Source: Promethearchaeota archaeon (GTDB lineage: Archaea; Asgardarchaeota; Odinarchaeia; Odinarchaeales; JBHLKK01). Taken from it: a stretch of DNA of 15,300 bases. This document shows positions 2,583 to 13,741 of this stretch, piece after piece (the first letter of the stretch is position 1; the number at the start of each line of letters is the position of its first letter). Below the pieces are notes generated by a model. The model was given only the letters and a program-made list of their open reading frames with translations. It was not told the origin of the DNA and searched no databases. The stretch covers positions 23,365-38,664 of the forward strand of contig JBHLPL010000005.1 of NCBI GenBank assembly GCA_048939465.1, in the 5' to 3' direction. The position numbers were made by a program, and so were the translations under genes.

Positions 2583-3155
2583 CTAACTTATATTCAGTCC
2601 TTCTTTTAATTTTCCCAGTTCACTCTCGGATAGCTTCTCGACAGTTACACGAGAGGAATCTTCGGCGACTATTGCGCTGTTTCCGAGGGGGTCCTCAACT
2701 ATTAAAGTGAAGGCACGTTTGCCCTCTATGGCCTCATCAATAATATTGGCAACTCTAGTGGCGCGTTCCTTTTTGGAAGGTTCCTCAGAAAATCGTTTCG
2801 CCATCTCTACTGCATCTTTAAACCTATAAAGAATGCCTTCTATGTTTGATATAAAGGCCTGTGCGACTGTTCCTGGTTCCATTGATATGCCAAATTCGGG
2901 TATTCTTATTGCGCCAGTGTTACTGCGAATAACCTTGATGGTGAGGTCATCAACTCCGCCTACTTTAACCGAGTGCCTGCTGGGTTCTCTTGCATCTAAG
3001 ATTAAGATGTTGTTCTGTTTGAAAAGGCAACTTGGGCACCTTACAGTTGTTATCAAAACCGAGCCAAAATGAGGTATGCTAACCTGCTCAGTGAGATACA
3101 CCAAATCCTTTTGCTTGCATACAGGACATAACATCCTGCCAGAGAATTCAGCCAT
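2583..3155 (-). CDS. zpr1: ZPR1 zinc-finger domain protein
   Basis: CPVC...IPHFG...CPSC zinc finger, then KVIRS..G.I.IPEFG..MEPG...FISNIEGIL and LIVEDPLGNSAI. Confidence 0.93.
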   Translation of the reverse strand: MAEFSGRMLCPVCKQKDLVYLTEQVSIPHFGSVLITTVRCPSCLFKQNNILILDAREPSRHSVKVGGVDDLTIKVIRSNTGAIRIPEFGISMEPGTVAQAFISNIEGILYRFKDAVEMAKRFSEEPSKKERATRVANIIDEAIEGKRAFTLIVEDPLGNSAIVAEDSSRVTVEKLSESELGKLKEGLNIS

Positions 3156-3195
3156 TGAGATCCCTCGAGTTAGTTAAACCAAAATCAGTGCCAAG

Positions 3196-4791
3196 CTAAC
3201 CATCTAGCTTGACCCGCTTCTTTTTCACAGGCTCAACCAAACCAGTAATACCTATGAATACTGGTCCTCGAATATCAATCTTGTTGTTTTTTGACATTAT
3301 GTAGCGTCGTATCGATTTATCTACGTCTATGTTGATATCTGAAGGTTGCTTGGATATCCTTATCCTGATTTTAACCTCTCCTTCGCCTTTTTCGATCAGA
3401 TCCTCCAACCCTTTTGCTGCAACCGCCGCAATCGAATCCAGATATCGAATTCCAGTGTCGAAGCCCCTCTCTGAAATCTCCCTATCAGGAATAATCCCGA
3501 TAATACTCCCATTAAGTACCCATAATTGGTTTAAAGCAGCGGGTCCAAGGAGTTTTACCCCTGGATCAGTTTCCCAGACCGTTACCCGAACGTTTTTTTC
3601 CTTGACTTCACCCTTCCAGGCGATGAATTCTGCCGGGGTCGGCATATCCTTGTTTTCTTCAGCCACTCTGACAATGCTTTTCATAATTTCTTTTCCAATT
3701 TTTGATACAGGTTTGTCCTTTATTTTCACGCCTTTCGCGATTTCTTCGTCTGAGTACTCAACCTCTTTGTAGAAATAGGGGTACACAAGCCTTCTGATAT
3801 CCTCTTCTCCCGTTTGGATCATTACGCAACGCTCCACACCAAATCCAGCGTTCAGAACAGGGTATTCTATGCCAAACTTTGCAAGAGAAATCGGGCTATA
3901 AAATCCTCCATCTCCTAATTCAATCCAATCTTTCGCTGTGGGGTGACGTACAAAAATCTCGAATTCTGTGCCAGGAGCATAGTACTTCGAAGTTGTTTTC
4001 TTCATTTCAAATCTTACAGTTTTAAACCCTAGTCTGTTAAGAACCATTTCAGCTATTTGCATACCATCCGTCAAAGAAAGCTCATCTGCAAGAACTACAT
4101 AGGAGACCGTATAAGAGGAGTAAAGGTGTGTTTGATCGAGTCTTTGCTCTCTACGGAATTTTTCCCCGACTGTGAAGAGTTGAATAGGAAGCAGAGATTT
4201 ATGTTTAACCTCAGCGAGAACGGGAAACCACAATGCGGTCATGTGAGACCTTAGCGTTTGATCAGTAGGTTTAGGCCTTAACTTTTTGAATTCTACAAAA
4301 ACCGAGTCGATCATGTTAGCGGCTTGTTCTTCGCTTATTCCAAGTCTTAACACCAATATTTCTATCAGATCATCAGCGTTTATTTCTCCGGTTTTATATT
4401 CTCTCAGTACACTCTTCAATTCTTCTGTTTTGTCAAAATCAGGAATGATTCTTCGGATTTCTTCCATTTTCCTTTTACCAAGACCTATGTCGGCGCGAGG
4501 AAGGGTCGCCAGATAAAAGACCCGATCAAGTATTACTGCCGCCTCAGGTCCGTATTCCTTGTAAACCTCTTCCTCTCTGACAATTGTCGGCAAAATCACT
4601 TCTTCAAAACCTAACCCAGTAAGTACTTTCCTGGCCTCTTGGATGAAATCTAATACCGGATGTGTCTTACCGCCCTTCCTTAATTTAAAATCCCCTTTCT
4701 TGCCTTCTAATATCTTAGCGGTTTCTATCCATGCCTTTTCATAATCCTCTTCAGCTTTTCTGAGGATTTCATGAATATTAAATTTGGTCAT
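3196..4791 (-). CDS. sepS: O-phosphoseryl-tRNA(Cys) synthetase (SepRS)
   Basis: N-terminal AWIET, GKTHPV, LGFEEV, KEYGPEAAVILDRVFYLATLPRADIGL, TLRSHMTA, FRREQRLD.THL, SKYYAPGTEFE, GFGVER and LLGPAALN are all characteristic of SepRS. Confidence 0.95.
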   Translation of the reverse strand: MTKFNIHEILRKAEEDYEKAWIETAKILEGKKGDFKLRKGGKTHPVLDFIQEARKVLTGLGFEEVILPTIVREEEVYKEYGPEAAVILDRVFYLATLPRADIGLGKRKMEEIRRIIPDFDKTEELKSVLREYKTGEINADDLIEILVLRLGISEEQAANMIDSVFVEFKKLRPKPTDQTLRSHMTALWFPVLAEVKHKSLLPIQLFTVGEKFRREQRLDQTHLYSSYTVSYVVLADELSLTDGMQIAEMVLNRLGFKTVRFEMKKTTSKYYAPGTEFEIFVRHPTAKDWIELGDGGFYSPISLAKFGIEYPVLNAGFGVERCVMIQTGEEDIRRLVYPYFYKEVEYSDEEIAKGVKIKDKPVSKIGKEIMKSIVRVAEENKDMPTPAEFIAWKGEVKEKNVRVTVWETDPGVKLLGPAALNQLWVLNGSIIGIIPDREISERGFDTGIRYLDSIAAVAAKGLEDLIEKGEGEVKIRIRISKQPSDINIDVDKSIRRYIMSKNNKIDIRGPVFIGITGLVEPVKKKRVKLDG

Positions 4792-4854: not shown

Positions 4855-5499
4855 TCATCTTTCCTTACCATATTTCATCATTTCTTGTGATAGTTTCTTC
4901 ATTTCCTTGATTAGTTTTTCACGTTGAATTGCATTCATAACGTCTCCTCGAGTTTTTTCGAGCAGGGCTCTAGCAATATCGCATTTGCGTCTCAGTCCAG
5001 GAACTAACGATTTAGGATACTCGATTGAAGACAATACCGCATATATCTCCTCCATGAGATCCAAAGCGTGTTCAGCATTTTTGACATTTTCTTTGCGAAT
5101 TGCATTTAAGCTGTGCCTACGCAGCTCGCCAACCAAATCGCCAATACCTAATAGATAACTCCGATATGGTACCTCTAGTTCTTCAGGCGATAGGAAGACA
5201 TCGCCTTTTAGCAGGGAAACTAATATTCTTGCCTCGGTATATTCTTGATAAGCGGTCATCATTAGATTTGAATAGTGGAGCTTAGGATACTTCATAAGAG
5301 CTTCACGAATTTCATTCAATATTTTCTTTGCATTAGAGTTCTTTTCGGTGGCTTCTTCGAATTCAAATCTGTGAGCGGCACTGACTGCTTCCCCGGATAA
5401 ACGTATTGATTTCCTTATGCCTTCTAGAGCTTCTGTTTTTATCTTATCCTCCTCTTCCAAGATCGTTCTTATCCTTTCTGTGATTTCATTCAAATTCAA
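4855..5499 (-). CDS. Translin family protein (archaeal Trax/C3PO-like)
   Basis: All-helical 214 aa protein with REEAL-like KTEAL, AYQEYTEA, YLLGIGDLVGELRR and LRRKCDIAR..LEKT motifs. TTG start with GAGGTG SD. Confidence 0.9.
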   Translation of the reverse strand: MNLNEITERIRTILEEEDKIKTEALEGIRKSIRLSGEAVSAAHRFEFEEATEKNSNAKKILNEIREALMKYPKLHYSNLMMTAYQEYTEARILVSLLKGDVFLSPEELEVPYRSYLLGIGDLVGELRRHSLNAIRKENVKNAEHALDLMEEIYAVLSSIEYPKSLVPGLRRKCDIARALLEKTRGDVMNAIQREKLIKEMKKLSQEMMKYGKER

Positions 5500-5515: not shown

Positions 5516-6502
5516 CTAGGCTACTTTTATAGATTCCTTCAACCGGCTCAGGAGAACTACTCTACTTTCAATACTCTCGTTAATGATTTCATAACTAGAT
5601 TCTTCGCAGATTCTTTCTGCGAAGTTCTTTACTGTATCATGTCTTGGCATGTTCTTTGAGATCATCCTAAGCTGCGCCCCACCGATAAACATCGCCGCCT
5701 TGACTTCAACATATGTGCAGTTGGACATATCTATGAGTCTAGCGTATCCTTTGGGATCAATCATGTTATATCCCTCCACCATTGTTAATCTTAGCACGGT
5801 CGGACAGCTGAAAGCAGGAAGCAATTCGATTGTTTCAATTAGTCTCTCCCAACCATCTCGAAGAAGTGATCTACATACTCTTTTATGAGTGGCTCTATTC
5901 GGCGCACTCACTGATACATAAAGTTGTGTTGGTTCTGATAGATTTCCTAACCGTTTTGGCAGGATGCCATTTGTTACTACAAAGGCCGTAAAACCCCTCC
6001 TTCTAATAATCTCAACCATTTCACTTAAGCGAGAGTATAGTAGCGGTTCTCCAGACAGACTTATTGCAAAGTGCCGAGGTTCCATTGCCTCATTCCATTT
6101 CTCCCAACTCACTCGTGCGTGAGAGAGTGGTTTATAACCTGTGAGGATTCGTCTTTGCTCGAGAATGCATTCATCGATTATTGTTTCGGGATCATCGGCC
6201 TTTCCGTGCATTAATGCCATCTGATTCCAATTAAGCTTGTAATCTCCTGGCATTATGCGCCAACAATAGATACATTGGTTAGTGCACCAGATAACACTGG
6301 GGGTACACTGGACGCATCTATGGCTTTCTATGCCATAGAACTTATGTTTATAGCAATACTCGCCTTTAACCAAGCTATTATGAAGCCATCTGCACTTCTT
6401 GATAGCACTATGTTGACCCACCAAGTGGTACTTTTGTCGTCTCAAAATTGTCTTAACATCATCTGGTACCACAACTTCACGAGATTTGCTTATTTCCAAC
6501 AT
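5516..6502 (-). CDS. taw1: 4-demethylwyosine synthase (radical SAM, TYW1/Taw1)
   Basis: QKYHLVGQHSAIKKCRW, CYKHKFYGIESHRC, CTNQCIYCWR (CxxxCxxC), HFAISLSGEP and YVEVK. Start ATG 6502 preferred over the track's 6544. Confidence 0.95.
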   Translation of the reverse strand: MLEISKSREVVVPDDVKTILRRQKYHLVGQHSAIKKCRWLHNSLVKGEYCYKHKFYGIESHRCVQCTPSVIWCTNQCIYCWRIMPGDYKLNWNQMALMHGKADDPETIIDECILEQRRILTGYKPLSHARVSWEKWNEAMEPRHFAISLSGEPLLYSRLSEMVEIIRRRGFTAFVVTNGILPKRLGNLSEPTQLYVSVSAPNRATHKRVCRSLLRDGWERLIETIELLPAFSCPTVLRLTMVEGYNMIDPKGYARLIDMSNCTYVEVKAAMFIGGAQLRMISKNMPRHDTVKNFAERICEESSYEIINESIESRVVLLSRLKESIKVA

Positions 6503-6628
6503 AGGAGAGACCTTCTTAGAGACATTGCAGATATCGAAAATCAAACAGAATTCAAGTAATGAAGTCGTTTGTTAGGGATTTCGTGTATTAACTGACCCGA
6601 TTCTCTGAGGCCCAAATCTCCTCAACGC

Positions 6629-6977
6629 TCAATCCTTGTGCGATTCCTGAGAAAGATCGCCCGACTCTTCAGAAGACTCTGAAGTGGTCGGAGCAGTTTG
6701 CGACTCTGCTTCAGTACTTGCCTGATAGTTGTCTACGATTGAGAGACGGATCAAAAATGAATCCTGCCAAATCCCCGTAGACATCTACCGCTTCTGATAA
6801 GCGATGAATGGCCAATTTTCTCTCAACACCGCAATTACTGCAACGAATATCAGCTACCCCTTGAACCCTAAACAACTCCACACGAACTGCCTGTTTTCCA
6901 CAAGCAGGACATGTAAAGATTGAGGGGATAGTGGGTTTAGGTCTAGTCACGATTTTCTTCCTTCGTCTGCGCCCCAT
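6629..6977 (-). CDS. elf1: Transcription elongation factor Elf1, spliced: join(complement 6770..6977, 6629..6738), 105 aa
   Basis: MGRRRRKK...FTCPACG...CSNCG zinc ribbon, GGAGG SD. After removing 6739..6769 the protein reads SEAVDVYGDFVDNYQASTEAESQTAPTTSESSEESGDLSQESHKD*. Unspliced, it shifts frame after YGD and stops at 6711 (88 aa). Elf1 identity is certain; the spliced model is an inference. Confidence 0.88.
6739..6769 (-). other. 31-nt BHB intron in elf1 mRNA
   Basis: Minus strand: GUCUACG-GGGA-UU^U-GGC-A-GGAU-UCAUUUUUG-AUCC-GUC-UCUC-AA^U-CGUAGAC. This gives a 7-bp exon helix, a 4-bp central helix GGGA/UCUC, two 3-nt bulges and an intron helix. Cutting after bulge nt 2 restores the frame and the conserved residues. 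Confidence 0.85.
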
Positions 6978-9178: not shown

Positions 9179-9604
9179 TTAGATATCTAATACGTATTGC
9201 AGTGTGATCTTCTCATGTTCTTGTCCTATCTCCATCTGGGCATATGTCGGCGCTTTGACCTCGGTTTTCTGGACGTGACGCTGAGGATCAAACTTCTCGC
9301 CCCATGCTTCACAATCAAGTGAACACCTAGGTACTTCTTTTATCCTGACCTTGAATTCAGTAAAGGCAATTCGCTCAGCATCAAAGATATAAATTAACTC
9401 ATCCAAGTAGTCATATAGGAGCGACTGCAAATCCTCCGCTTCGAGCTTGAATGTGTATTTTATCTTAGACTTTAGTTCAGAGATGTCGGTCATTATCTCA
9501 AAAAGCGCTCTTCCCGCTTGTTCGAACGCCTCATCGATTGTCCTTCCCCACGCCCGGATTAAGATATCTGCCGTATGTTCCAAGAAGGTGAAACCGTTGC
9601 CCAT
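9179..9604 (-). CDS. Archease (cofactor of the RtcB tRNA-splicing ligase)
   Basis: FTFLEHTADILIRAWG, LLYDYLDEL, AWGEKFD..RH...EVKAPTY and terminal VLDI. Start ATG 9604 preferred. Confidence 0.93.
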   Translation of the reverse strand: MGNGFTFLEHTADILIRAWGRTIDEAFEQAGRALFEIMTDISELKSKIKYTFKLEAEDLQSLLYDYLDELIYIFDAERIAFTEFKVRIKEVPRCSLDCEAWGEKFDPQRHVQKTEVKAPTYAQMEIGQEHEKITLQYVLDI

Positions 9605-9638
9605 AGTTGTATACCGTCCCACAATCATTTTTGCCTTG

Positions 9639-9962
9639 TCATTCAACCCTGCTCCCGAGAGAAACTATCCGATCAGGGACAATTAGAGAGACATTATCCC
9701 CGTCCACAGCAGCCAGCAACATGCCATTGCTGATCAGTCCGAAGATTCTGGCAGGTTTAAGATTTGTCAGAACCACTATATGTTTTCCTATAAGTTCCTC
9801 AGATTCATAATAGCCTGCTAATCCAGCAACTAGTTGTGTAGGCTTTTCTTTGCCCACATCGACCTCCATGCGTATCAGATTTTTTGAACCTTTGACGCGT
9901 TCAGCATTCAAGATTTTACCAGTCCGAATATCCATCTTCTTGAATTCATTTATTGTTATAAT
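9639..9962 (-). CDS. tRNA-binding OB-fold protein (Trbp111/CsaA/MetRS C-terminal-like); 5' end uncertain
   Basis: ITINEFKKMDIRTGKILNAERV..S.NL....VDVG, QLVAGLA.YY..EEL.GK, VLTNLKPARIFGLISNGMLLAA. Family-like sequence extends 9 codons upstream of the first ATG (9935). Confidence 0.85.
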   Translation of the reverse strand: MITINEFKKMDIRTGKILNAERVKGSKNLIRMEVDVGKEKPTQLVAGLAGYYESEELIGKHIVVLTNLKPARIFGLISNGMLLAAVDGDNVSLIVPDRIVSLGSRVE

Positions 9963-10226: not shown

Positions 10227-10625
10227 CTAACTACCAATGGGTGTCAGGTCTTTTATCAATTCCTTTATTATTTTCGCCGCGTCCTTCATCTCAAATAGAA
10301 TTATCCCAAGCTTTGAACCTGACGGTGCTAAAGCCACAAGGACTGAGGGGCCGCACTCACTCATTACGGCAAAACCATCTTTGCCGTTTACAATCACCTG
10401 ATCTATGTCTCCTCGTTCTAAAACAGAGCCCACTCTGCTACCCAAACCTAACATCATTCCTGCCATCGCAGAAATGCCAAACTCGTCAATATCCTTAGGT
10501 AAGGCACTCGCCATTACCAATCCATCTCGCGACACAAGAGCGCTTGCATCAATATCGCTTCTTTTTTCTAAATCCTCTAGTACACGTTCTAGTTTCTTTC
10601 TCAAAGGCACGACCTTTTCAGGCAT
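10227..10625 (-). CDS. Roadblock/LC7 domain protein (MglB-like)
   Basis: ASALVSRDGLVMASALP...ISAM...L.RG.IDQVIVNGKDG...LGIILFEMKDAA. Start overlaps the GTPase stop (ATGCCTGA). Confidence 0.9.
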   Translation of the reverse strand: MPEKVVPLRKKLERVLEDLEKRSDIDASALVSRDGLVMASALPKDIDEFGISAMAGMMLGLGSRVGSVLERGDIDQVIVNGKDGFAVMSECGPSVLVALAPSGSKLGIILFEMKDAAKIIKELIKDLTPIGS

Positions 10626-11274
10626 TCCACAACTCCCCCACAGGCCGATTGAGCAACTTCTTTCGTCTTATGATCTTCAACAATTCAATTAGTGCTCTAT
10701 CCACTCCCTCCCTATTTATGGCCGATACCTCGTGGATTTCTACCTCACTTATCCTCAATATTCGCCTTATTTCTTCTGCTCTCAATGCTTGCGGTACGTC
10801 TTGCTTGTTTGCTACAATAACGGTGGGAACACTTCTCCCCAATGCTACGTTTACTTCTTCTAGGAGAGCTAACGTATAGCCTACCTGACCTGGTCTCGTG
10901 CTGTCGACTACAAAAAGAACTCCATCACTCCCTCGAGATATTGCGGACCTTACATCCTTAAACCACATTTGACCGGGACTACCAAAGAGAAAAACGTTCC
11001 ACGCTTCCCAGCCATAAACATACGGACCGGGAGTTCGACTTTTGAACGATCTGATATCATACAGTCTGTCTTTCTTGCCATGGAGCCATACCAGTTTTCC
11101 TAGATCAAAACCCACTGTGGTCGAATACTCTCCCCACTCTTCACTATATCCCTCGCGCTCCATACTACATGCATTAGGATCAAGCGAGTGAATTATTGTA
11201 GTTTTTCCAGCTTGAAAGGGACCTACGACGAAAATCTTTATTTGGCGTTCGCGTATCAATTCTAGGGTATCCAT
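10618..11274 (-). CDS. Small GTPase, MglA-like
   Basis: G1 GPFQAGKTT, G2 STTVGFD, G3-like GSPGQ, VLFVVDST, G4 NKQD, G5 SA. Start ATG 11274 preferred over the track's GTG 11439. Confidence 0.9.
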   Translation of the reverse strand: MDTLELIRERQIKIFVVGPFQAGKTTIIHSLDPNACSMEREGYSEEWGEYSTTVGFDLGKLVWLHGKKDRLYDIRSFKSRTPGPYVYGWEAWNVFLFGSPGQMWFKDVRSAISRGSDGVLFVVDSTRPGQVGYTLALLEEVNVALGRSVPTVIVANKQDVPQALRAEEIRRILRISEVEIHEVSAINREGVDRALIELLKIIRRKKLLNRPVGELWNA

Positions 11275-11773
11275 ATCAGATTCACATCCTTCTGCAAATG
11301 AACACACCTTCTTCGAAGGTAGGACGAATTTCGGGTTCTTGATTAGTGCGGGATTTCTGTCGATGATAAGCTCTCGGCAGCCCGAAAGCCGATCCAGTAC
11401 CCTTCGACGAGCAGAATCGGGCTTAGCTCTTTCAGACACGGTGTTGAGCAGTTCTGCCGGAGAGGACGGGTTGGTATGCGCATCCCAAGGTTATTGTAGC
11501 CCGGATAGGTAGCTCCGTTCTCGGAACTGAATCCAGTTTAGACTTGTTTTGCTACCACCATTACAAGCCTTCGACCTCACTCACCGGCTCCTGGCTTTCC
11601 GGCGATTCTTTCTCAAGATATTGTTCTCTCGTTTGCTTTTATTCTCCACCTTTCACAAATCCATCAGAATTCAGCAACTCTGTGTTCAGCAAATTCCGAA
11701 CAGCGAGTTTGAAATCCTTTTAAATGTTCGCAGCAATCTACTATTGTTCCAAACAGTCGAGGAGGTCTCAGTC

Positions 11774-12148
11774 ATTAAATCGAGTCCTGAAACAGTAATA
11801 GACCTTGACGATGAGGTAATTCATCACGATATCCTGGTCATAGGAGGCGGTTTGGCCGGCCCGGGATATGCCTTGGAGTCGTCTAAGTACGCGGATACAG
11901 CAGTGGCAACAAAAGTTCATCACCTGCGATCCCACTCAGTGGCAGCCCAAGGAGGCGTGAACGCAGCTCTTTCCGCGAATGACAGTTGGGAAAAACATGC
12001 ATTTGACACAATCAAGGGGGGCGACTACCTATGCGATCGGAATGCAGTAAGGATTCTAACCGAGCTTGCACCAAGTCTTGCCATCACTCTCATGAGGCAA
12101 AGATCAAGCGAAAATAGGGGAGATGAGAAGATTGAGAAAAAGGGTTGA
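11774..12148 (+). pseudogene. sdhA: Truncated N-terminal fragment of a succinate dehydrogenase/fumarate reductase flavoprotein subunit
   Basis: HDILVIGGGLAG (FAD-binding), RSHSVAAQGGVNAAL (covalent-FAD His motif) and DSWEKHAFDTIKGGDYLCD. Similarity ends at about ELAPS (about 12075); the family is normally more than 500 aa. No in-frame ATG at the domain start. Confidence 0.85.
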
Positions 12149-13514
12149 AAAAGATTCATTGGGCGAAAGAGAAGTTCCCTATGATGTCTATTATGGTATC
12201 CAGACTTTAAGAGCCTTAGAGAATTTTCCAGTTACAGGCTATAGACCTCACCCCAATTTCATAAAGGCCTACGTAATGATAAAGAAGGCCGCCGCCCTAG
12301 CCAATATTAAGCTAGAGGTACTGAAAAAGGACATAGGGGAAGCAATCCTGAAGGCGTGCGATGAGATACTCTCGGAAAACCTCATCGATCAATTTGTTGT
12401 GGATGTTTTCCAAGCAGGAGCCGGGACTTCTTTCAATATGAATGTAAATGAGGTAATTGCCAATCGGGCCTTAGAAATACTGGGCCGAGAAAAAGGTAGA
12501 TACGATATAATAAGCCCGAATGACCACGTAAATAGAAGTCAGTCAACGAATGATACTTTTCCTACGGCCTCTCATGTGGCGATCCTGATTTCCTTAGATA
12601 AGCTTGCGTCAGCTCTAGTTCATCTTCAAGATACATTCGAGTCAAAAGCCGAAGAGTTTAAATCAGTTCTAAAATCTGGAAGGACCCACCTTCAAGACGC
12701 GGTGCCCCTAACCTTGGGTCAAGAATTCAAAGCATATGCAACGGCAATCAAAAGGCAGATTTCACACATAAATGAACGGAAAAAAGATATTGAAGAAATA
12801 GCTTTGGGCGGGACTGCTGTGGGTGTTGGTACAAATGCGCCAAAAGGATACCAAGATGAGGTCGTCCAGAGACTAGTAGAAATCTCCAATTTGAGTGTCA
12901 AAAAACCCTTGGATCTAAGAGAAGCTCTTCAGAGTCACGCCAAAATGGCTGCATTTTCCAGCTCTCTTAGGGAACTTTCACTTGAATTGATAAGGATTGC
13001 AAACGATTTAAGGCTTTTAGACTCCGGACCGGCTTCAGGAATCAATGAAATAAAGCTCCCTGCCGTTCAGCCAGGCTCCTCCATAATGCCCGGAAAGGTC
13101 AACCCAGTCATGGCTGAGTGCTTGAATATGATATGTTTCCAAATCGTTGGAAATGATTTGGCCGTAAGTATGGCTGTGCAAGCAGGCCAAATAGATCTGA
13201 ATGTGATGACGCCTGTTATTATCCACAATATCCTGCAATCTATGACTATGCTTTCAAATTATCTTCCTGTTTTTGCCGACAAATGTATTAAAGGAATTAA
13301 AGTCAACATAGAAGGAACCACAGAAACACTGCACAAGAATGCAGCCATCGCCACACTCTTGACGCCCTACATTGGCTACCTAGAAGCGGCCAAAATTGTC
13401 AAAGAATCATTAATAACTGGAAAGGCCATCGTGGAGTTGGTCCAAGAAAAAGGATTGCTTTCGCCGGACAAAATAAAAAAGATATTTGATTTTAGAAAAT
13501 ATCTCGAAGATTAA
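12123..13514 (+). CDS. aspA: Aspartate ammonia-lyase (fumarase class II/aspartase superfamily)
   Basis: R.EKDSLGE.EVP...YYGIQT.RA.ENF, QAGAGTSFNMNVNEVIANRALE, SQSTNDTFPTA, KSGRTHLQDA and the signature GSSIMPGKVNPVMAE. The PVMAE context favours AspA over FumC, but class II fumarase is not excluded. Confidence 0.8.
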   Translation: MRRLRKRVEKDSLGEREVPYDVYYGIQTLRALENFPVTGYRPHPNFIKAYVMIKKAAALANIKLEVLKKDIGEAILKACDEILSENLIDQFVVDVFQAGAGTSFNMNVNEVIANRALEILGREKGRYDIISPNDHVNRSQSTNDTFPTASHVAILISLDKLASALVHLQDTFESKAEEFKSVLKSGRTHLQDAVPLTLGQEFKAYATAIKRQISHINERKKDIEEIALGGTAVGVGTNAPKGYQDEVVQRLVEISNLSVKKPLDLREALQSHAKMAAFSSSLRELSLELIRIANDLRLLDSGPASGINEIKLPAVQPGSSIMPGKVNPVMAECLNMICFQIVGNDLAVSMAVQAGQIDLNVMTPVIIHNILQSMTMLSNYLPVFADKCIKGIKVNIEGTTETLHKNAAIATLLTPYIGYLEAAKIVKESLITGKAIVELVQEKGLLSPDKIKKIFDFRKYLED

Positions 13515-13610
13515 CACAGTCGACGTATTACCAAGAGGAAAAATAGTGTAGTTGGCGAACCCCCCCATCTTATTTTGATTGGAGCCCCGGGAGGGATTCG
13601 AACCCTCGAC

Positions 13611-13641
13611 GTCTGCTTCTAGGTCATTTTGGCTTTTGAAT
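13611..13641 (-). other. tRNA intron 2, non-canonical position 45/46 in the variable loop (31 nt)
   Basis: Central helix CUGU/GCAG, bulges UG^A and AC^G, intron helix UUC/GAA, weak outer helix (relaxed BHB). Removal gives the standard variable loop UGGUC. Confidence 0.85.
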
Positions 13642-13649
13642 CAACAGCT

Positions 13650-13677
13650 CTCTTGAGCTAAAGGTCATGTTTAGCCT
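13650..13677 (-). other. tRNA intron 1, canonical position 37/38 (28 nt)
   Basis: Exon helix GCAGC/GCUGU, central helix CUCG/CAAG (one C.A mismatch), bulges UA^A and AG^A, intron helix GGCUAAA/UUUAGCU. Confidence 0.9.
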
Positions 13678-13741
13678 TACGAGGCTGCCGCTCCACCGGG
13701 CTGAGCTACCGGGGCTTCTATCTCTTCTAAAATAATATGTT

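What the first reader, a model, noticed from the sequence alone, without database searches (positions are those of the whole stretch)
6731..6783. Bulge-helix-bulge intron inside the protein-coding gene elf1
Seen in sequence: on the minus strand GUCUACG/CGUAGAC (7 bp) flanks a 4-bp helix GGGA/UCUC with two 3-nt bulges (UUU, AAU) and an inner intron stem. This is the hBHBh' geometry cut by the archaeal tRNA splicing endonuclease. Cleavage after the second bulge nucleotide removes 31 nt (6739..6769) and joins GAU U|UC GUA GAC, giving VDVYGD-F-VDNY, which matches the conserved Elf1 helix (VDVYxx[FW][IV]D). The unspliced frame gives the non-homologous LAGFIFDPSLNRRQLSGKY. Established: BHB introns are common in archaeal tRNA/rRNA, but the well-validated mRNA case is cbf5 in Crenarchaeota; I do not recall one reported in elf1. 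Inference: expression of this transcription elongation factor depends on the EndA/RtcB tRNA-splicing machinery, and automated annotation would miss it.
Basis: partly seen in the sequence, partly recalled or inferred. Interest (0 to 1): 0.95.

Follow-up and report, generated by a model that had tools for sequence, protein, structure and literature searches.

The report
tRNA-type mini-intron in archaeal elf1 gene
A 31-base insert that breaks the gene for transcription elongation factor Elf1 in a Hodarchaeota (Asgard) archaeon has the exact RNA shape cut by the tRNA-splicing enzyme. Removing it restores the conserved end of the protein, so it is very probably a real mRNA intron, a kind published for only one other archaeal protein gene (cbf5).

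Summary
On the minus strand, 6782..6731 forms a strict hBHBh' motif:
- a 7-bp outer helix;
- a 4-bp central helix;
- two 3-nt bulges on opposite strands;
- an inner hairpin.

Cutting after the second base of each bulge removes 31 nt (6769..6739). This joins the Elf1 zinc ribbon to ...VDVYGD-F-VDNYQ... plus an acidic tail.

A profile of 50 uninterrupted homologues scores the spliced protein 12 bits higher than the unspliced one and aligns it to the profile's end.

Seven distinct alleles from the same genus, taken from several independent assemblies, all carry a 31-nt insert at this site. The motif core never varies, changes in the helices keep the pairs, the hairpin loop varies, and the spliced frame runs to a stop at a fixed position (TGA, once TAA). 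Same-order relatives and the other Asgard genomes examined read VD(A/V)YGEFVD without a break.

The genome encodes two EndA paralogues, two RtcB and archease. It also has interrupted pyrG, gatA and ahcY genes, and most detected tRNA genes carry introns.

No RNA data exist, so splicing itself is inferred. No paper found reports an elf1 intron. This scan had earlier noted a different elf1 intron, in the first zinc knuckle, in other Asgard genomes.

Verdict: a real intron and a new member of a known kind.

The parts
6770..6977 (-). elf1 exon 1: basic N-terminal tail, CxxC...CxxC zinc ribbon, up to ...VDVYGD plus the first base of the Phe codon
   Evidence: Pfam PF05129 Zn_ribbon_Elf1, E 3.4e-18, profile positions 1-72 of 79. 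Aligns to human ELOF1 residues 1-74 of 83.
6739..6769 (-). 31-nt BHB intron in phase 1, inside the Phe codon (U|UC)
   Evidence: The boundaries follow the rule of cleavage after the second bulge base. A 31-nt insert sits at this site in 7 alleles with no indels. It is absent from same-order and other Asgard homologues. DNA contigs from 4 runs cover it with no gap or joint.
6629..6738 (-). elf1 exon 2: (F)VDNYQ helix end and acidic Ser/Glu-rich tail; stop TGA at 6631-6629
   Evidence: This frame is open in all 9 distinct sequences up to a stop at a fixed position (TGA, TAA in L065), while the unspliced-frame stops vary. It adds 12 bits to the homologue-profile score.
6776..6782 (-). outer helix h, 5' strand (exonic, GUCUACG)
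   Evidence: Pairs with 6737-6731. Of 7 pairs, 5 never vary and 2 change to G-U wobble; 100% of cells are paired.
6772..6775 (-). central 4-bp helix H, 5' strand (exonic, GGGA; GAGA in the other alleles)
   Evidence: Pairs with UCUC at 6744-6741; 100% of cells are paired.
6769..6771 (-). 5' bulge UUU; cleavage between 6770 and 6769
   Evidence: Invariant in 7 alleles.
6745..6768 (-). inner helix h' and hairpin loop of the intron
   Evidence: The stem is kept, with one C-G to G-C double change and U-A to U-G changes. The loop is the most variable stretch.
6741..6744 (-). central helix H, 3' strand (intronic, UCUC)
   Evidence: Invariant in all alleles although it is intronic, while 11 of 31 intron sites vary.
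6738..6740 (-). 3' bulge AAU; cleavage between 6739 and 6738
   Evidence: Invariant in 7 alleles.
6731..6737 (-). outer helix h, 3' strand (exonic, CGUAGAC)
   Evidence: The one change, A to G in G001, gives U-G and is synonymous in the spliced frame but not in the unspliced frame.

Best explanation
The elf1 gene of this Hodarchaeota (Asgard) archaeon is interrupted, 36 codons before its true stop, by a 31-nt archaeal bulge-helix-bulge intron.

In the pre-mRNA, the exon sequences coding for V-Y-G and V-D pair with each other to form the outer helix. The exonic G(G/A)GA pairs with the intronic UCUC to form the central 4-bp helix. Two 3-nt bulges flank this helix on opposite strands.

The host splicing endonuclease (two EndA paralogues, probably a heterotetramer) cuts after the second base of each bulge. 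RtcB, helped by archease, then joins the exons and probably circularises the intron.

The mature mRNA encodes a 105-aa Elf1 with the conserved C-terminal helix (VDVYGDFVDNY) and an acidic tail. Unspliced mRNA would give an 88-aa protein that lacks both.

Shown here: the motif, its conservation, the restored protein, the conserved downstream frame and the presence of the enzymes. Inferred: cleavage and ligation in vivo.

The intron was gained within this genus-level lineage, after it split from its same-order relatives.
For: - **Geometry:** strict hBHBh' with tRNA-type handedness. RNAalifold predicts it independently on 7 alleles, and so does the single-sequence minimum-energy fold in 6 of 7 alleles.
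- **Exact excision restores the family consensus:** spliced 117.1 bits against unspliced 105.1 on a profile of 50 uninterrupted homologues, with the alignment reaching profile position 81 of 83 instead of 71. Pfam Elf1 and human ELOF1 alignments of the unspliced ORF stop at the intron.
- **Alleles:** seven distinct alleles from NCBI MAGs, ENA and Logan assemblies keep a 31-nt insert. The bulges and the intronic UCUCAA never vary, every change in h and H gives a wobble pair, one pair in the inner stem shows a C-G to G-C double change, and the loop is variable. In the unspliced frame the middle residues are unconstrained: FIF, SDL, YDS, SDF, SES.
- **Downstream frame:** the spliced frame is open in all alleles to a stop at a fixed position, with one TGA to TAA change. 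Unspliced-frame stops differ, giving 88 or 92 aa.
- **Relatives:** four same-order genomes and all other listed Asgard homologues have VD(A/V)YG(E/D)F(V/I)D without interruption.
- **Machinery:** two EndA genes, each with N-terminal and catalytic domains; two RtcB; archease in this window.
- **Context:** pyrG on the same contig has a 31-nt insert whose removal restores GGVMSGIGKGATAASIG. gatA lies in three collinear pieces with gaps of about 26 and 32 nt. ahcY is fragmented. Of 25 tRNA genes detected, 19 carry introns, and a two-intron tRNA lies in the window.
- **Chance:** a BHB at a pre-specified site and length has probability about 6e-6 to 4e-7.
Against: - No RNA evidence of any kind.
- Covariation is not statistically distinguishable from shuffles (426 of 500 shuffles reach the observed score), because the alleles are close and most pairs never vary. 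The exonic helix strands are also constrained by coding.
- BHB-like geometry as such is not enriched in the genome over a mirror-image control (2661 against 2637). A crude genome-wide 'frame rescue' count was likewise not enriched.
- In this allele the minimum-energy fold opens the central helix into a 6x6 internal loop.
- Both reading frames are open across the 31 nt, so stop codons do not force the intron reading.
Confidence: 0.86

Rival explanations
1. Splicing is partial or regulated. Both an 88-aa Elf1 without the helix and tail (unspliced) and the 105-aa full form (spliced) are made, as with HAC1/XBP1 in eukaryotes. This is a refinement of the main explanation, not an exclusive rival.
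For: The unspliced frame has no stop inside the intron and ends after only 9-13 further codons in every allele, so a stable truncated zinc-ribbon protein is conceivable. The known Haloferax 5'UTR BHB intron affects expression (PMC7714728).
Against: The residues encoded by the intron in the unspliced frame are unconstrained, and the unspliced stop moves between alleles. This argues against selection on that product. No RNA or protein data exist.
Confidence: 0.12
2. The 31 nt are a fixed insertion that truncated Elf1. The 88- or 92-aa ORF is the real product, the BHB-like fold is a coincidence or has another role (for example a stabilising hairpin), and the downstream frame is dead sequence.
For: Gene callers and public records annotate exactly this ORF. 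Pfam still recognises it. BHB-like shapes are frequent by chance in this genome.
Against: The downstream +1 frame stays open for 36 codons in all 9 sequences, with no indels, a conserved STSE(S/P)SE motif and a stop at a fixed position that changes TGA to TAA. The junction reproduces the family consensus residue for residue. The intronic UCUCAA never varies while neighbouring intron sites do. The site and length coincide with a strict BHB at a probability of about 1e-6.
Confidence: 0.06
3. The ribosome reaches the downstream frame by a programmed +1 frameshift or by translational bypass of the hairpin, without RNA splicing.
For: Both frames are open across the insert in all alleles. A stable hairpin is present.
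Against: A frameshift product would carry about 10 extra, unconserved residues inside a helix that has no insertion in any of the uninterrupted Asgard homologues examined. No conserved slippery or take-off/landing sequence is seen in the alignment. This rival does not explain the exact two-bulge geometry, the invariant bulges or the 4-bp helix, all of which the BHB reading predicts.
Confidence: 0.03

Closest known systems
BHB intron in the cbf5 pre-mRNA of Crenarchaeota (Watanabe et al. 2002; Yokobori et al. 2009, PMC2738675)
   Same: A short intron inside a protein-coding sequence, folded as a bulge-helix-bulge, expected to be cut by the tRNA splicing endonuclease and joined by the tRNA ligase. 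Patchy, lineage-specific presence that points to gain and loss.
   Different: A different gene (elf1, not cbf5), a different phylum (Asgard/Hodarchaeota, not Thermoproteota), and no homology between the introns. cbf5 in this genome is uninterrupted. The cbf5 intron has RT-PCR and in vitro support; this one has none.
BHB intron in the 5' UTR of HVO_1309 mRNA, Haloferax volcanii (PMC7714728)
   Same: An mRNA substrate of EndA outside tRNA and rRNA.
   Different: That one lies in the untranslated leader and does not restore a reading frame. It has been shown experimentally.
Archaeal tRNA BHB introns, very frequent in Asgard archaea (PMC11291895; bioRxiv 10.64898/2026.10.13.758758)
   Same: The same motif, the same handedness, the same cleavage rule and a similar size. 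The same genome has intron-rich tRNA genes.
   Different: The host RNA here is an mRNA, and the exonic strands of the motif are codons of a conserved protein helix. Neither paper mentions introns in protein genes.
30-nt BHB insert in the first zinc knuckle of elf1 in other Asgard genomes
   Same: The same gene family, the same kind of mini-intron, the same phylum.
   Different: A different site (FTCP|.CGEKS in the first CxxC, with in-frame stops), a different length and a different lineage. I saw it in G023 and G033, family f9. This indicates an independent gain.
IRE1/RtcB splicing of HAC1/XBP1 mRNA in eukaryotes
   Same: Protein-enzyme splicing of an mRNA without a spliceosome, ligation by the tRNA ligase, a short intron whose removal shifts the frame and changes the C-terminus of a transcription factor. 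XBP1: 26 nt (from my own knowledge).
   Different: The endonuclease is IRE1, not EndA/TSEN. The motif there is a pair of stem-loops, not a BHB, and the splicing is stress-regulated.

Membership tests
Archaeal bulge-helix-bulge (BHB) intron, EndA substrate | Two 3-nt bulges on opposite strands, each 3' of its strand of a 4-bp central helix | tested here: met
   GGGA/UCUC with UUU and AAU. Predicted by RNAalifold and by the minimum-energy fold in 6 of 7 alleles.
Archaeal bulge-helix-bulge (BHB) intron, EndA substrate | Flanking helices h (exon-exon) and h' (intron) for the strict hBHBh' form | tested here: met
   h is 7-8 bp and 100% paired in 7 alleles. h' is 3+5 bp and 87.5% paired.
Archaeal bulge-helix-bulge (BHB) intron, EndA substrate | Cleavage after the second bulge base on both sides yields a functional mature RNA | tested here: met
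   The in-silico product restores the Elf1 consensus: +12 bits, profile covered to 81 of 83.
Archaeal bulge-helix-bulge (BHB) intron, EndA substrate | Base-pair covariation that supports the helices | tested here: inconclusive
   94.7% of cells are paired against 38-50% when partners are slid. There is one double change and all single changes give wobble pairs, but the shuffles reach the observed score in 426 of 500 cases.
Archaeal bulge-helix-bulge (BHB) intron, EndA substrate | The host encodes the splicing endonuclease and a 3'-phosphate RNA ligase | tested here: met
   Two EndA paralogues, two RtcB, archease at window 9179-9646.
Archaeal bulge-helix-bulge (BHB) intron, EndA substrate | Excision observed in RNA: spliced junction, circular intron, or in vitro cleavage | not testable with these tools
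   No RNA run could be listed.
Elf1/ELOF1 transcription elongation factor (Pfam PF05129) | Basic N-terminal tail plus a four-cysteine zinc ribbon | tested here: met
   PF05129, E 3.4e-18. Matches PDB ELOF1/Elf1 chains in Pol II elongation complexes.
Elf1/ELOF1 transcription elongation factor (Pfam PF05129) | C-terminal helix VDVY..(F/W)(I/V)D that completes the domain | tested here: met
   Met only in the spliced reading. The unspliced ORF covers Pfam positions 1-72 of 79.
cbf5-type crenarchaeal mRNA intron (the same intron by descent) | Located in cbf5 at the conserved crenarchaeal site | tested here: not met
   cbf5 of this genome is one open frame of 345 aa covering profile positions 5-322. 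The elf1 intron is an independent case.
Programmed ribosomal frameshift or bypass site | A conserved slippery or take-off sequence at the shift point, and a product with no foreign insert | tested here: not met
   No conserved slippery motif in the 7-allele alignment. The product would carry about 10 unconserved residues in a helix that has no insertion in any uninterrupted homologue examined.

The most novel reading that the evidence does not exclude
The elf1 intron is one visible instance of routine, genome-wide splicing of protein-coding mRNAs by the tRNA-splicing machinery in this Hodarchaeota genus. Essential genes such as pyrG, gatA and ahcY are interrupted too. If so, 'genes in pieces' that depend on enzymatic RNA splicing already exist for many protein genes in the archaeal group closest to eukaryotes. 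Introns are also gained repeatedly in the same small gene (two independent elf1 sites in Asgard).
Probability: 0.55. Interest if true: 0.85.

Novelty: new member of a known kind. Interest (0 to 1): 0.66.

Why it matters
Published knowledge counts one coding-sequence BHB intron in archaea (cbf5 of Crenarchaeota) and one in a 5'UTR (PMC7714728, PMC2738675). A textbook-quality BHB intron in elf1, in the Asgard lineage nearest to eukaryotes, has several consequences.
- It shows that the tRNA-splicing enzymes probably also mature mRNAs there.
- It makes a core transcription factor depend on RNA splicing.
- It shows that standard gene calling mis-annotates such genes. Public records give an 88- or 92-aa protein with a wrong C-terminus, and in some contigs the neighbouring TYW1 gene is extended over exon 2.
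- Together with the interrupted pyrG, gatA and ahcY in the same genome, it gives a concrete, testable entry point to ask how common protein-gene introns are in Asgard archaea, and how they arise.

Tried and rejected
- **RNA evidence:** no RNA holder was listed for the gene. All four runs laid are DNA contigs and show no joint.
- **Metagenome-contig scan:** it gave only distant relatives of 54% identity or less, none with the insert. Close alleles came from the protein-cluster route instead.
- **Genome-wide BHB scan:** I used 4-bp outer, 4-bp central and 3-bp inner helices with a mirror-image control. There was no excess of the true handedness (2661 against 2637). There was no excess of 'ORF rescue' either: 39 against 45 at 50 codons. 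The test is too crude. It misses relaxed motifs such as the pyrG one and has a high background, so it says nothing about how many mRNA introns exist.
- **Covariation statistics:** not significant with 7 close alleles.
- **Mobile-element idea:** the 53-nt motif and the intron have no other copy in the genome, so the intron is not a repeated element at sequence level.
- **Homology to the cbf5 intron:** rejected, because cbf5 is uninterrupted here.
- **ARAGORN on the window:** it found no tRNA, although Rfam finds one with two introns.
- **Structure prediction of the spliced protein:** not attempted. The spliced sequence is not a letter-for-letter translation of the window, and I did not type it into a tool.

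Full report
**1. What is in the sequence**

The minus strand of window 6977..6711 holds an 88-aa ORF. Pfam recognises it as Elf1 (PF05129, E 3.4e-18), but only over profile positions 1-72 of 79. Its alignment to human ELOF1 stops at residue 70 of the query and residue 74 of 83 in ELOF1. A second ORF in the +1 frame (6784..6629) overlaps its end.

- outer helix GUCUACG (6782-6776) with CGUAGAC (6737-6731);
- central helix GGGA (6775-6772) with UCUC (6744-6741);
- bulge UUU (6771-6769);
- bulge AAU (6740-6738);
- inner hairpin 6768-6745.

Each bulge lies 3' of its strand of the 4-bp helix, which is the handedness of tRNA BHB motifs. Cutting after the second base of each bulge removes 6769..6739 (31 nt). 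This joins GAU U|UC GUA GAC and gives a 105-aa protein...VDVYGDFVDNYQASTEAES...HKD*.

**2. Is it more than chance?**

The fold is stable: -23.6 kcal/mol, z = -4.1. A BHB-like shape alone, however, is not rare. A scanner with 4+4+3 bp helices found 2661 such shapes in the 1.96-Mb genome, against 2637 of a mirror-image control that EndA would not cut.

What is improbable is the coincidence. The protein alignment fixes independently where an insertion must begin and end and how long it is. A BHB at a given site and length has probability about 6e-6, or about 4e-7 for an outer helix of 7 bp or more.

**3. Comparative evidence**

The organism belongs to a genus labelled Candidatus Hodarchaeota / Promethearchaeota (Asgard) in public records.

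I collected seven distinct alleles of the region. They come from the window, from two further species-level genomes of the genus, and from ENA and Logan assemblies of several samples. Their features:
- All have a 31-nt insert at this site, without indels.
- The bulges, the first three intron bases and the intronic UCUCAA are invariant.
- 11 of 31 intron sites vary, mostly in the hairpin loop.
- All three changes in the outer and central helices give wobble pairs. They are synonymous in the spliced frame, and one is non-synonymous in the unspliced frame.
- The inner stem shows one C-G to G-C double change.
- RNAalifold returns the hBHBh' structure as the consensus. Single-sequence minimum-energy folds contain the BHB core in 6 of 7 alleles.

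Formal covariation is not significant with so few, close sequences.

At protein level, the residues the intron would encode in the unspliced frame are unconstrained (FIF, SDL, YDS, SDF, SES), and the unspliced stop moves (88 or 92 aa). The spliced frame is open in every sequence up to a stop at a fixed position, which changes from TGA to TAA in one allele. It encodes a conserved FVD(N/H)YQA...STSE(S/P)SE... tail.

Homologues from the four same-order genomes read VDAYGEFVDAF without interruption. So do those from other Asgard, Nitrososphaeria and Bathyarchaeia genomes (VDVYGEF(V/I)D).

In a search of 400 genomes of the phylum, the matches of the three genomes of this genus broke off at profile position 70-75 of 89. 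Most other listed matches reached 77-88. Only the best 150 matches were listed.

A profile built from 50 uninterrupted homologues scores the spliced protein 117.1 bits (profile 1-81 of 83) and the unspliced one 105.1 bits (1-71).

**4. Machinery and genomic context**

The genome (91% complete) has:
- two EndA genes, each with N-terminal and catalytic domains;
- two RtcB genes;
- an archease gene in this very window, at 9179-9646.

Splicing is clearly in heavy use:
- ARAGORN finds only 25 tRNA genes, 19 of them with an intron.
- Rfam finds a 133-nt tRNA gene with two inserts in the window, which ARAGORN misses.

Following notes of other first-stage readers on this genome, I made three checks.
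- pyrG, 5.5 kb before the window, carries a 31-nt insert. Its removal restores GGVMSGIGKGATAASIG, with a relaxed BHB.
- gatA lies in three collinear pieces separated by about 26 and 32 nt.
- ahcY is fragmented.

Essential genes interrupted in this way argue that the inserts are removed from the RNA. cbf5, the classical case, is uninterrupted here.

**5. Mechanism**

Most likely (0.86), EndA cuts the pre-mRNA at the two bulges. RtcB with archease then ligates the exons, giving full-length Elf1, and the intron is released, probably as a circle.

The motif, its conservation, the restored protein and the enzymes are shown. Cleavage and ligation are inferred.

Rivals:
- Partial or regulated splicing that gives two isoforms (a refinement, 0.12).
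- A fixed truncating insertion with a chance fold (0.06). This is contradicted by the conserved downstream frame and stop.
- A +1 frameshift or bypass (0.03). This is contradicted by the absence of any insertion in homologues and by the unexplained two-bulge geometry.

An assembly artefact is excluded. Independent assemblies carry the insert, and contigs from four runs (X1 and X2 look like one data set filed twice) cover it without a joint.

**6. Comparison with what is known**

The library search found only the cbf5 coding-sequence intron of Crenarchaeota and a 5'UTR intron in Haloferax as mRNA BHB introns (PMC2738675; PMC7714728, which states this explicitly). Papers on Asgard archaea report very intron-rich tRNA genes but no protein-gene introns. 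No paper combines Elf1 with BHB.

This scan had already noted a different elf1 mini-intron in other Asgard genomes: 30 nt, in the first zinc knuckle. I saw that insert, with in-frame stops, in G023 and G033. elf1 has therefore been invaded at least twice, at different sites.

The present intron meets every sequence-level criterion of a strict BHB intron. It is not related to the cbf5 intron.

**7. Verdict**

It is a new member (new gene, new site, new lineage) of the known kind 'BHB intron in an archaeal protein-coding gene'.

It matters mainly as part of what looks like widespread mRNA splicing in a close archaeal relative of eukaryotes. That wider claim still needs RNA data and a proper census.

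Noticed in passing
window 13583-13715 (-): A tRNA gene of 133 nt for a 71-position model (Rfam RF00005, 44 bits). It has an insert of about 30 nt in the anticodon loop and one of about 32 nt before the T-arm. ARAGORN does not find it.
   Followed up: partly
window 9179-9646 (-) and 9639-9935 (-): An archease gene (the RtcB cofactor; PF01951, E 3.7e-46) next to a tRNA-binding-domain protein (PF01588), two genes upstream of the intron-bearing elf1. The neighbourhood is rich in tRNA-related genes: PheRS alpha 3196-4791, TYW1/Taw1 5516-6544.
   Followed up: partly
G000 contig C116:17805-17835 (-), 5.5 kb before the window: pyrG (CTP synthase) is interrupted by a 31-nt insert. Removing it restores the conserved N-terminal GGVMSGI|GKGATAASIG. 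The motif is relaxed: 4-bp outer helix, GGGC/GCCU central helix, AUA and AAA bulges, almost no inner helix.
   Followed up: partly
G000 contig C77:43519-44908 (-); C118:315-951 (-): gatA (amidase) matches its profile in three collinear pieces (1-105, 104-153, 155-445) separated by about 26 and 32 nt. ahcY is fragmented, with stops between the pieces. Both fit further mini-introns noted by other readers.
   Followed up: partly
L072 (G023:C17, about 3150-3200) and L073 (G033:C4, about 58610-58660): In two genomes of another Asgard family, elf1 carries a 30-nt insert with in-frame stops between FTCP and (D/E)CGEKS of the first zinc knuckle. This is a second, independent elf1 intron site. In the 400-genome search, best E-values of about 1e-13 in many genomes of that family, against about 1e-26 in others, suggest it is polymorphic there.
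   Followed up: partly
G000 contig C31:2961-5708 (-): One of the two RtcB genes is a 973-aa open frame in which profile positions 1-57 and 45-426 lie about 1.4 kb apart. This probably reflects an intein or another large in-frame insertion.
   Followed up: no
window 11549-12148 (+): A 199-aa ORF that matches only positions 1-97 of the 414-position FAD_binding_2 profile. It then ends, overlapping the start of a fumarase/aspartase-type lyase gene (12123-13514). It may be a truncated or interrupted flavoprotein gene.
   Followed up: no
L062, L069-L071 (close alleles), position 882 onward: Gene callers start the downstream TYW1 gene 15 nt after the unspliced elf1 stop (393 aa instead of 328-342 aa). 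This runs over elf1 exon 2 in another frame, an annotation error that follows from missing the intron.
   Followed up: no
window 10227-11439 (-), 2583-3155 (-), 4855-5499 (-): Eukaryote-like genes typical of Asgard archaea: a small Arf/Ras-type GTPase next to a Roadblock/LC7 protein, a ZPR1 zinc-finger protein and a translin-family protein.
   Followed up: no
whole genome G000: ARAGORN finds only 25 tRNA genes in a 91%-complete genome, 19 of them with an intron. Many tRNA genes are therefore probably too interrupted to be detected.
   Followed up: partly
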